Assembly: GCF_965641715.1 (NCBI RefSeq)
Contig: NZ_OZ282453.1
Strand: one strand, 5' to 3'
Length of the DNA stretch: 64,000 nt
From: Escherichia coli
GTDB taxonomy: Bacteria; Pseudomonadota; Gammaproteobacteria; Enterobacterales; Enterobacteriaceae
Positions 3,001 through 6,000 of the stretch are shown piece after piece (positions within the stretch are counted from its first letter, which is position 1; each line of letters starts with the position of its first letter). A program made the position numbers.

Positions 3001-6000
3001 AATATCAAATATTATAAAAATCCACAAACTGGGTTTTACAACTCTATTCAAGCACTTCAGTTAGGTGATGGTGCATTTCTTAAGTTACATAATGATTACA
3101 CCAGCTTCAATAAAGGAGGTTTTAAAAAACTATTCGATCATGTAGTAAAAAATTATGACTCTCGAAATATGCTTTTCTTCACTAATGGAGCATTGGGGGC
3201 CGTATCGACAAAATATGAATGTACTTCATTTGATAAGTTTGTATTTAATGCAAGTTATTTGATTACTTGGAGTTCGTCATTTTCTATTTGGAAGGATGAC
3301 TTTATTGAATTGGAAACAAAACCTGATGATCTCAATGAGATGTTCCCTCACACCAGCCTTATTTTACAATCAAATAATAAAATATTCTCAATAGTAGATG
3401 AATCTATTTTTAAAAATATTAGTGTATCAAGAAAAGGGGGGTATAATATATTTTATAATTTTTGTGTGTTATTTTTGGATATGCTTGATATTGAAAAAAA
3501 GAAAGGCTTGTTGTCAGAAAAAACAATAAAAAAGGTAAAAAGAGATATGTATTATAAGTTTGTAATGGTTTGGTACTATCGGACAATTCAGAACAATAAA
3601 AGAAGATATACCTTTGATAACGAAAATGCGTATGAGAATATTAAAAAAGCATATGGATTTATAGGTTTTTCTGGTGTGTTTTTAGTAGCTAAAGCCAAAT
3701 ATTTCTTTGATAAAATATTTGGCTTTTTCGTTAAAAGTTAGTATGGATTGAGCATGATTATGCAGTTAAGAACAAATATTTCTGGGAGGGTGGGGCTTTG
3801 GTTGATTTTATTTACCATTTTTGGGGGAGCTTATAAGACTGCATTTGGAACTATTAGTACATCATATATATCATTTGTCTGGGGTGGCTGGATTTTAATT
3901 ATATATATATATCATTCATATTATGTAAGACTTAATTTCTTATATAGGATTAGCAGAAGTTATTATCTATATGCATTTTTTATATCTGTGTTGTTAATAG
4001 TATCTCTTATACAATTCTCATTTTTCGGTATAGGTGATATGCTGAATATTGACTTACAACTAAAAAGAGTAATGCAGGCAATAGTATCATTTACATTTTT
4101 TGCTATAACTGCTGATTATATTATTAACAAATTGACTGTTAGGGATTTATTCTTAGGAATCATATATTTTCTGTTATTTATAACGTTGTTGTGTGTTATA
4201 CAATTATCAAATGATTCATTTAGAATATGGTATTTGAATCTTACTGCAATTGATGGATACTGGTATGAGTGGGCCCAGAAAAGTAATCGAGCGATTGGAT
4301 TAAAGGCTATGTCTATTTGGGATACATCAGTATCCTATTCATTCCTGTTATTTATAGCATTTGCTGCATACTTTCAATTAAAAAATAAAAATATTCTTCT
4401 ATATTTATTTGTAGCATTGGTTTTTCTATTGATTGTTATGAGTGGCAGGACTGGATTATTATTTTTTATTGTATTTTCCTGCCTTCTATCAATCAGGTAT
4501 AAAATTTATGGATTCATGTTTACATATGCAATAACTTCGGTTATCTGCATTTTTTTTATTATGCTTGTGAGTGAAAGTGAGACTGTTTTACGTGTAATAA
4601 ATTTTGCTTTTGAATTAATTATGAATATTATAAATGGGAAAATTGAAACAAACTCAACAGATGATCTTATTAATAATCACTTATTTATACCTCATTTAGA
4701 TAACATATTTTGGGGTGATAATATTTATATTGGTGATGGTGATGAAGTAATTTCAAAAATTGGCCGTTCATCTGACTCCGCATTTGTTATTAACTATGTT
4801 TCTAATGGAGTGATTGGTTTTTTCATAACATCTATTCTGGCCATCATTAATGGGAAAATGATATTTAGTTATTTTAATATTCACAATAAAAGTGTTTTTT
4901 ATTTTTTTGTTTTGCTTGTTTGTTTTTTTCTGTCATTTGGTTTGTATATAAAGGTATTGGTATATGTTAGTGCTACTTTGTTGAAAGCAATGATATTTAC
5001 AACTATATGTTTAAATCATATTTTTAAAAATAAAATAATAGTTCGGAAAACTTATGAGAAATGAGAAATTAATTATTTTAATTTTACGTGGTGGACCATC
5101 ATTCTATCGCAGACTCAGAAGTCGAATATATGCAATGATTTTCAATACTGAAAAGTTGACAATTGGTAGAAATGTTTCTCTGTCAGGCACGAACAATATT
5201 TACTTTGGACGTAACGTATTGGTTGGAAATCAATCATGGTTGGCGGCGATAAACTCGGGGAAAATAATTATTGGAGATAATGTATCATTAAGTCAAAATG
5301 TGCATATAGCTGCTAATCAATGCGTTAGAATAGGAAATGGTTGTTTGATAGGAAGCGATGTTTTAATAACAGATCACAATCATGGTTATGGCAGAGAACT
5401 AATATATGTTCCACCTAAAGAACGTAAGTTAATTATTAAAGGAAGCACTGAAATTGGTGAAAATTGTTGGTTGGGTGATAATGTGAAAATATTAAGTGGA
5501 GTTGTTTTAGGGAGCAATGTAGTTGTTGGTGCAAATTCTGTTGTAACACGGAGTTTTCCAGCTAACTGTATTATAGGTGGTATACCAGCAAAACTAATAA
5601 AAAAAATACAATGATATAAGGGTAGTGTTTTTATGACGGTAGATATTATTATAGCAACATATAATGGCGAAAAATACATAAGGGAACAAGTGGAGTCTAT
5701 ACTCAATCAAACATATAAGAATTTTCATTTATATATACGTGATGATGGTTCTACTGATAAGACAAAAGATATTATTTATGACTTGAAATGTTTAGACGAT
5801 AGAATTATTTTGATTGAAGATGATATTATTAATAATGGTGTTGGAGAAAACTTTAAAATACTATTAAAACATTGCTCCGCTGATTATGTTTTTATTGCGG
5901 ATCAGGATGATGTATGGGAAAAAAGTAAGATAGAAGAGCTGCTCTCTTTTGCTATAAAAAATTTACCTACAAACTCGCCAGGTATTGCATATGCCCCAGG

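What the first reader, a model, noticed from the sequence alone, without database searches (positions are those of the whole stretch)
5599..5606. A8 homopolymer tract near the 3' end of the O-acetyltransferase gene
A run of eight adenines lies inside the coding sequence (KLIKKIQ region). Tracts like this are slippage-prone and could switch O-acetylation on or off by frameshift, although here it sits only a few codons from the stop, so the effect would be small. It may simply reflect the AT-rich composition.
Basis: seen in the sequence. Interest (0 to 1): 0.15.

Follow-up and report, generated by a model that had tools for sequence, protein, structure and literature searches.

The report
Harmless A8 run ending acetyltransferase gene
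The run of eight adenines is real, but it is just two lysine codons written in AT-rich code at the very end of an E. coli O-antigen acetyltransferase gene; it is almost invariant among isolates and slipping there cannot switch the enzyme off, so it is ordinary.

Summary
The A8 run at 5599-5606 is confirmed. It spans codons I182-K183-K184-I185 (ATA AAA AAA ATA) of a 186-aa WbbJ-like hexapeptide-repeat O-acetyltransferase (5054-5614, +). The gene lies in an E. coli O-antigen cluster: rmlBDAC-wzx-GT2-wzy-AT-GT2-GT4-GT4-manCB.

The run is not unusual. The 30% GC cluster holds 4 A/T runs of 8 or more, against 3.7-5.6 expected.

No slip truncates the protein. A9 gives 188 aa, A7 gives 193 aa and A6 gives 187 aa. 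The predicted final beta-strand (residues 179-184) is kept by A7 and A9, and only the last two tail residues change. That tail varies in sequence and length across homologues. The nearest orthologues (…LIKSL, …LIKMQ) cannot encode the run.

The tract is A8 in 6/6 complete E. coli genomes, one metagenome contig, five further long assemblies, and about 300 contig records whose product ends KKIQ. A7 occurs in one clean assembly. A6 occurs in two automated assemblies, one demonstrably full of homopolymer errors. A9 was not found.

Verdict: this is a compositional by-product, at most a weak and neutral slippage site. It is not a phase-variation switch.

The parts
5599..5606 (+). A8 homopolymer: last base of codon I182 (ATA), K183 (AAA), K184 (AAA) and first base of I185 (ATA)
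   Evidence: Read directly. A8 in all six complete E. coli genomes, one metagenome contig and L011-L017.
5054..5614 (+). 186-aa left-handed beta-helix (hexapeptide-repeat) O-acetyltransferase gene, WbbJ-like; its start overlaps the end of wzy
   Evidence: ORF; Pfam PF00132; NCBIfam WbbJ at 3.5e-39 but below the equivalog cut-off; PDB sequence hits to MAT, GAT and NeuO; AlphaFold model pLDDT 97.6 with last strand 179-184.
5612..5614 (+). TGA stop codon of the acetyltransferase, two codons after the tract
5618..5622 (+). AAGGG, a Shine-Dalgarno-like sequence for the downstream GT2 gene; it would be translated through in the A7 frame
   Evidence: Read from the sequence; its function is inferred.
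5628..5632 (+). T5 run in the spacer before the GT2 start codon; T6 in about half of related loci
5633..6562 (+). Downstream family-2 glycosyltransferase gene. In the A7 allele the acetyltransferase stop (TGA 5634-5636) overlaps its ATG.
   Evidence: ORF and Pfam PF00535; A7 frame computed and seen in L006 as genes 6001-6582 and 6579-7508.

Best explanation
The A8 run is a by-product of coding and has no switching role. The acetyltransferase family ends in a conserved ...G-x-P-A-K-x-I-K strand followed by a short variable tail. In this E. coli allele the tail begins with a second lysine, flanked by isoleucines. In a 30% GC O-antigen cluster these residues are written ATA AAA AAA ATA, which makes eight As. 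Like any 8-base homopolymer, it slips occasionally during replication and is also miscalled by sequencers. A slip here replaces only the last two or three residues and adds 1-7 more. The catalytic beta-helix stays intact, so such alleles are effectively neutral and O-acetylation is not turned off. Shown here: position, frame consequences, composition statistics, near-invariance among isolates, variability of the tail among homologues, and the predicted structure. Inferred: that the slipped proteins keep their activity.
For: Tract position and codons. A9 gives 188 aa (...KKNTMI), A7 gives 193 aa (...KKYNDIRVVFL) and A6 gives 187 aa; none is truncated. A/T runs of 8 or more number 4 observed against 3.7-5.6 expected, and GC is 0.29-0.32 across the cluster. 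In a 56-sequence alignment K183 is conserved (42/56 K) while K184 is variable (13/56 K), Q186 is variable or absent, and the tail after K183 ranges from 0 to 16 residues. The closest orthologues, at 74-75% identity, end LIKSL or LIKMQ. The solved maltose O-acetyltransferase 3srt ends ...VIKKIE at the aligned position. The model has its last beta-strand at 179-184 with 185-186 unstructured, pLDDT 97.6. The homologue NeuO was crystallised with a C-terminal His6 tag (PMC3046976). The tract is A8 in 6/6 complete genomes, one metagenome contig and all 23 long contigs found through the neighbouring GT2 gene. The KKIQ-ending products account for 211+98 and more contig records, against 1 for A7. The A6 contig L009 carries five homopolymer deletions that break wzx, wzy, GT2 and GT4, so it is a sequencing artefact.
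Against: One otherwise clean assembly (SRR33365811 / GCA_050093585.1) has A7 as its only indel in 11.6 kb, so the tract does change in nature or in sequencing. I185 is hydrophobic (I or L) in 34/56 homologues and becomes N or Y after a slip, so a small effect on the C-terminal strand or trimer contact cannot be excluded. Activity of the slipped forms was not measured. Read-level heterogeneity could not be examined. At least two short-read assemblies have contigs that break at the run.
Confidence: 0.9

Rival explanations
1. Contingency locus: slipped-strand mispairing in the A8 tract switches O-acetylation of the O antigen on and off by frameshift, giving antigenic or phage-receptor phase variation.
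For: An 8-base homopolymer lies inside a surface-modification gene. A7 and A6 alleles exist in public assemblies. Homologous acetyltransferases such as NeuO are phase variable (PMC3046976).
Against: The tract lies at codons 182-185 of 186, and every shifted frame keeps the whole beta-helix. The run is not over-represented and is not conserved in orthologues. It is A8 in nearly all isolates, and at least one variant is an artefact. NeuO's switch is a 5' heptanucleotide repeat two bases after the start codon, the opposite placement.
Confidence: 0.02
2. Recoding or coupling site. Either ribosomal -1 frameshifting or transcriptional slippage on A_AAA_AAA makes a C-terminally altered isoform, or the A7 allele modulates the downstream GT2 by translating through its Shine-Dalgarno sequence and ending at an ATGA overlap. 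In T6 backgrounds the A7 slip would instead fuse the two proteins.
For: The heptamer A AAA AAA is in the correct 0-frame register. In the A7 isolate the acetyltransferase gene ends at 6582 and GT2 starts at 6579, a 4-base overlap. With A7 plus T6 the two reading frames join (computed).
Against: The alternative frames run only 4 or 9 codons and encode nothing conserved. RNA downstream has no stable structure (-8.4 kcal/mol, z = -0.54). The 502-aa fusion product and the A9 products are absent from the 15-billion-protein collection. The tract is absent from orthologues.
Confidence: 0.03
3. All observed tract-length variants, A7 included, are sequencing or assembly errors, and the tract is truly invariant.
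For: L009 shows systematic homopolymer under-calling. The other A6 case is a 969-bp contig from an automated assembly. Short-read contigs break at the run. Only deletions were seen, never insertions.
Against: The A7 sample has no other indel in 11.6 kb, although that stretch holds 16 other runs of 7 or more, and two assemblies of it agree. Both assemblies probably come from the same reads.
Confidence: 0.3

Closest known systems
NeuO, the phase-variable polysialic acid O-acetyltransferase of E. coli K1 prophage CUS-3
   Same: It is a homologous left-handed beta-helix O-acetyltransferase (PDB 3jqy matches residues 62-184 at E = 3.8e-13). It modifies a surface polysaccharide in E. coli.
   Different: NeuO switches through a 5'-AAGACTC-3' heptanucleotide repeat of 2-93 copies inserted two nucleotides after the start codon, so most lengths abolish the whole protein (PMC3046976). 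Here the repeat is a single 8-base homopolymer two codons before the stop, and no length abolishes the protein.
WbbJ / maltose (Maa) / galactoside (LacA) O-acetyltransferase group of hexapeptide-repeat enzymes
   Same: Hexapeptide repeats, size of about 185 aa, invariant D107 and H110, and a ...PA[KR]xIK C-terminal strand. 3srt ends ...VIKKIE at the same aligned place.
   Different: The score is below NCBIfam's WbbJ equivalog cut-off (134 against 243 bits), so this is a relative and not WbbJ itself. The acceptor sugar is unknown.
Homopolymer contingency loci of Neisseria, Haemophilus, Campylobacter and Helicobacter surface-glycan genes (from general knowledge)
   Same: A mononucleotide run inside a glycan-modification gene.
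   Different: Those tracts lie early in the gene or in the promoter, are usually poly-G/C or longer, vary between and within isolates, and give truncated OFF products. None of these holds here.
dnaX-type -1 frameshift and transcriptional slippage sites (from general knowledge)
   Same: An A-rich slippery heptamer in the right register.
   Different: There is no stimulatory structure, and no functional or conserved alternative-frame product.

Membership tests
Simple-sequence contingency (phase-variable) locus | Repeat placed so that a length change removes the functional product (5' coding region or promoter) | tested here: not met
   The tract lies at codons 182-185 of 186. The A6, A7, A9 and A10 frames give 187-194 aa with residues 1-183 or 1-184 unchanged. 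The last structured strand, 179-184, is retained in A7 and A9.
Simple-sequence contingency (phase-variable) locus | Tract length polymorphic among closely related isolates, with ON and OFF lengths | tested here: not met
   A8 in 6/6 complete genomes, 1 metagenome contig and 23/23 long contigs anchored on the neighbouring gene. About 300 contig records carry KKIQ-ending products, against one A7 isolate and two A6 contigs, at least one of them an artefact.
Simple-sequence contingency (phase-variable) locus | Repeat longer or more frequent than base composition predicts | tested here: not met
   4 runs of 8 or more observed against 3.7-5.6 expected in 1001-9800.
Simple-sequence contingency (phase-variable) locus | High reversible switching rate measured within a culture | not testable with these tools
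   This needs read-level data or reporter assays.
Hexapeptide-repeat (left-handed beta-helix) sugar O-acetyltransferase | Hexapeptide repeat domain above Pfam threshold | tested here: met
   PF00132 at 57.6 bits against a cut-off of 27; PF14602 at 36.6 against 27.
Hexapeptide-repeat (left-handed beta-helix) sugar O-acetyltransferase | Conserved catalytic histidine region | tested here: met
   D107 and H110 are invariant in 56 homologues. Their catalytic role is inferred from knowledge of the family.
Hexapeptide-repeat (left-handed beta-helix) sugar O-acetyltransferase | Beta-helix fold | tested here: inconclusive
   The confident model (pLDDT 97.6) shows a ladder of short strands after an N-terminal helix, and the sequence matches solved beta-helix enzymes. 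No fold search was run.
WbbJ equivalog (NCBIfam NF007240) | Score at or above the curated equivalog cut-off | tested here: not met
   134.3 bits against a cut-off of 243. It is related to WbbJ but is not WbbJ itself.
Programmed -1 frameshift / slippage recoding site | Slippery heptamer X XXY YYZ in the zero frame | tested here: met
   A AAA AAA with codons ATA|AAA|AAA.
Programmed -1 frameshift / slippage recoding site | Stimulatory downstream structure, and a conserved extended alternative-frame product | tested here: not met
   The fold of 5590-5680 gives z = -0.54. The alternative frames stop after 4 or 9 codons, and the tract is absent from orthologues.

The most novel reading that the evidence does not exclude
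The tract is a low-frequency slip site whose effect falls on the downstream glycosyltransferase rather than on the acetyltransferase. The A7 allele makes ribosomes read through the GT2 ribosome-binding site and terminate at an ATGA overlap. In T6-spacer backgrounds the same slip would fuse the two enzymes. Either outcome would tune expression of the glycosyltransferase, and so O-unit synthesis, in a heritable and reversible way.
Probability: 0.03. Interest if true: 0.3.

Novelty: not a real feature. Interest (0 to 1): 0.05.

Why it matters
It matters little. Had this been a true switch, it would have been a rare example of homopolymer-driven phase variation of O-antigen acetylation in E. coli, relevant to serotyping, phage sensitivity and vaccines. 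The evidence shows an ordinary compositional run whose slippage is rare and harmless. The practical lesson concerns homopolymer-length 'variants' at this locus in automated or long-read assemblies: they should be checked against neighbouring runs on the same contig before being believed.

Tried and rejected
1. Serogroup identification did not succeed. NCBIfam has no serogroup-specific Wzx or Wzy model that matches. Literature searches gave no assignment, and one search was wasted on an ambiguous term. The only lead is that UniProt files the Wzy and Wzx under Shigella dysenteriae (A0A510B225_SHIDY and A0A510B230_SHIDY). From memory I suspected O58 / S. dysenteriae type 5 (Rha + 2 Man + GlcNAc, O-acetylated), but this is unverified.

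2. The metagenome scan with a pattern tolerant of tract length returned one contig, with A8, so it added little.

3. The recoding hypothesis was rejected for lack of a stimulatory structure or a meaningful alternative frame.

4. I considered whether L009's five homopolymer deletions could reflect a mutator strain with a rough phenotype. I rejected this because five frameshifts in 10 kb, all one-directional, fit sequencing error better.

5. The mutation-rate literature search produced no E. coli figure that I read, so no rate is quoted.

Full report
**Observation.** Bases 5599-5606 of the window are eight adenines flanked by T on both sides. They lie in the + strand ORF 5054..5614, 186 aa, ending ...GGIPAKLIKKIQ*. 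Counting codons from the ATG, the run is the last base of I182 (ATA), K183 (AAA), K184 (AAA) and the first base of I185 (ATA). Q186 (CAA) and the TGA stop at 5612-5614 follow.

**What the gene is.** The product carries hexapeptide repeats (Pfam PF00132, 6.9e-16). Its best NCBIfam match is the LPS O-acetyltransferase WbbJ (3.5e-39), but at 134 bits against an equivalog cut-off of 243, so it is a relative and not WbbJ itself. Among solved structures it matches maltose, galactoside and polysialic-acid O-acetyltransferases.

The gene sits in a typical E. coli O-antigen cluster: rmlBDAC, wzx, GT2, wzy, this acetyltransferase, GT2, GT4, GT4, manC, manB. The same arrangement is annotated in six complete E. 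coli genomes that carry the same DNA at 99.2-100% identity. Downstream come gnd, ugd, wzzB and the his operon. The cluster is 29-32% GC against about 50% for the rest of the window.

**Is the run more than chance?** No. In 1001-9800 there are 4 A/T runs of 8 or more. First- and second-order Markov simulations of the same sequence give 3.7 and 5.6 (P = 0.52 and 0.82). There are 17 runs of 7 or more in that stretch. Other 8-base runs lie mid-gene in wzy (4550), GT2 (6376) and GT4 (7020).

**What a slip would do.** I computed the products:
- A9 gives 188 aa (...LIKKNTMI).
- A7 gives 193 aa (...LIKKYNDIRVVFL), with its stop overlapping the ATG of the next gene.
- A6 gives 187 aa and A10 gives 194 aa.

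No frame truncates the enzyme. An AlphaFold model built on 56 homologues is confident (pLDDT 97.6). It puts the last beta-strand at residues 179-184 and leaves I185-Q186 as an unstructured tail. A7 and A9 therefore keep every structured residue.

**Conservation of the tail.** In the alignment G176 and P178 are invariant, A179 is nearly so, and K183 is K in 42/56. K184 is K in only 13/56, and Q186 is variable or missing. The tail after K183 ranges from 0 to 16 residues. I185 is I or L in 34/56, so a slight effect of I185N or I185Y cannot be excluded. The solved maltose O-acetyltransferase 3srt ends ...VIKKIE at the aligned position. The homologue NeuO was crystallised with a C-terminal His6 tag (PMC3046976).

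**Origin of the run.** The conserved motif is ...PAKxIK. This allele happens to continue K-I, preceded by I, and AT-rich codon choice turns I-K-K-I into ATA AAA AAA ATA. The closest orthologues (74-75% identity) end LIKSL or LIKMQ and cannot encode an A8. The tract is thus a feature of this allele and not of the family.

- All six complete genomes have A8. This includes ES5, whose assembly carries 19 other indels in the cluster.
- A metagenome scan with a length-tolerant pattern found one contig, with A8.
- I also anchored on the conserved downstream GT2 gene, to avoid selecting on the acetyltransferase product. That protein is listed in 530 blocks of the collection. The 23 longest contigs collapsed to seven neighbourhood types, all with A8.
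- In the 15-billion-protein collection the two common KKIQ-ending alleles account for 211 and 98 contig records. These records are not all independent isolates.
- Exact look-ups of predicted slipped products found the A7 form once and the A6 form once on each allele. A9 on either allele, A10, and an A7+T6 fusion product were not found.

**Are the variants real?**
- The A7 case (SRR33365811, also deposited as GCA_050093585.1) has this one-base deletion as its only indel in 11.6 kb. It is either a real fixed slip or a single consensus error.
- The A6 contig from SRR29329184 has five indels. All are deletions in A/T runs of 6 or more, and they break wzx, wzy, GT2 and GT4 at once. This is systematic homopolymer under-calling, not biology.
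- The other A6 is a 969-bp contig that cannot be judged.
- Two short-read assemblies have contigs that end in or at the run, which shows that the run is a trouble spot for assembly.

Overall the tract is close to invariant. Variation is at most about 1% of records, only deletions were seen, and part of it is artefact.

**Rival readings.** A phase-variable ON/OFF switch fails on three counts: placement, lack of polymorphism and lack of over-representation. The true phase-variable relative NeuO uses a 5' heptanucleotide repeat two bases after the start codon (PMC3046976).

A recoding site has one point in its favour, the in-register heptamer A AAA AAA. Against it, there is no stimulatory RNA structure (z = -0.54) and the alternative frames stop after 4 or 9 codons.

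The least conventional reading left open is that the A7 allele alters translation of the downstream glycosyltransferase. In L006 the two genes overlap by 4 bases, and in a T6 spacer background the same slip would fuse them. I give this about 3%.

**Verdict.** The tract is a compositional by-product of two lysine codons at the very end of an AT-rich gene. It is at most a weak and neutral slippage site, it is not a functional feature, and interest is very low.

Noticed in passing
window 5628-5632: The T5 run lies between the Shine-Dalgarno-like AAGGG and the ATG of the downstream GT2 gene. It is T6 in 7 of the fetched related loci and T5 in the rest. This is a genuine two-allele length polymorphism in non-coding DNA that changes the SD-ATG spacing from 10 to 11 nt.
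   Followed up: partly
window 10194-10201: The T8 run in the manC-manB intergenic region is T7 in strain YSP8-1, which is otherwise a clean assembly.
   Followed up: no
window 4550-4557, 6376-6383, 7020-7027, 986-993: Other 8-base A/T runs lie mid-gene in wzy, GT2 and GT4, and near the 3' end of rmlA. Slips there would truly disrupt O-antigen synthesis. They were altered only in error-ridden assemblies (ES5, SRR29329184).
   Followed up: partly
L019 and L020 (GCA_033740935.1, GCA_045796265.1): Short-read assemblies have 525-615 bp contigs that end inside or at the A-run. The run therefore causes contig breaks, and several 'partial' acetyltransferase entries ending ...AKLI(K) result from that.
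   Followed up: yes
window 1-11700 versus 9890-50880: The O-antigen cluster is 99.97% identical to strain 1504D004, but the flanking chromosome is only 98.4% and 96.7% identical. This is consistent with the cluster being shared horizontally between different E. coli backgrounds.
   Followed up: no
window 35187-35595 and about 39122-39154: About 400 bp are present in the window but not in 1504D004 (near the cobU region). A roughly 9.5-kb PTS-sugar island next to tRNA-Asn in 1504D004 is absent from the window. A second tRNA-Asn-like copy lies at 57830-57939.
   Followed up: no
window 3748-5064 and 2824-3741: The putative Wzy polymerase has no Pfam or NCBIfam match at all. The first 'GT2' matches the family only over its first ~76 residues, so the role of its remaining ~230 residues is unclear.
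   Followed up: no
cluster-wide (Wzx, Wzy): UniProt files identical or near-identical Wzy and Wzx under Shigella dysenteriae (A0A510B225_SHIDY, A0A510B230_SHIDY). The cluster is therefore shared with a S. dysenteriae serotype; which one was not determined.
   Followed up: partly
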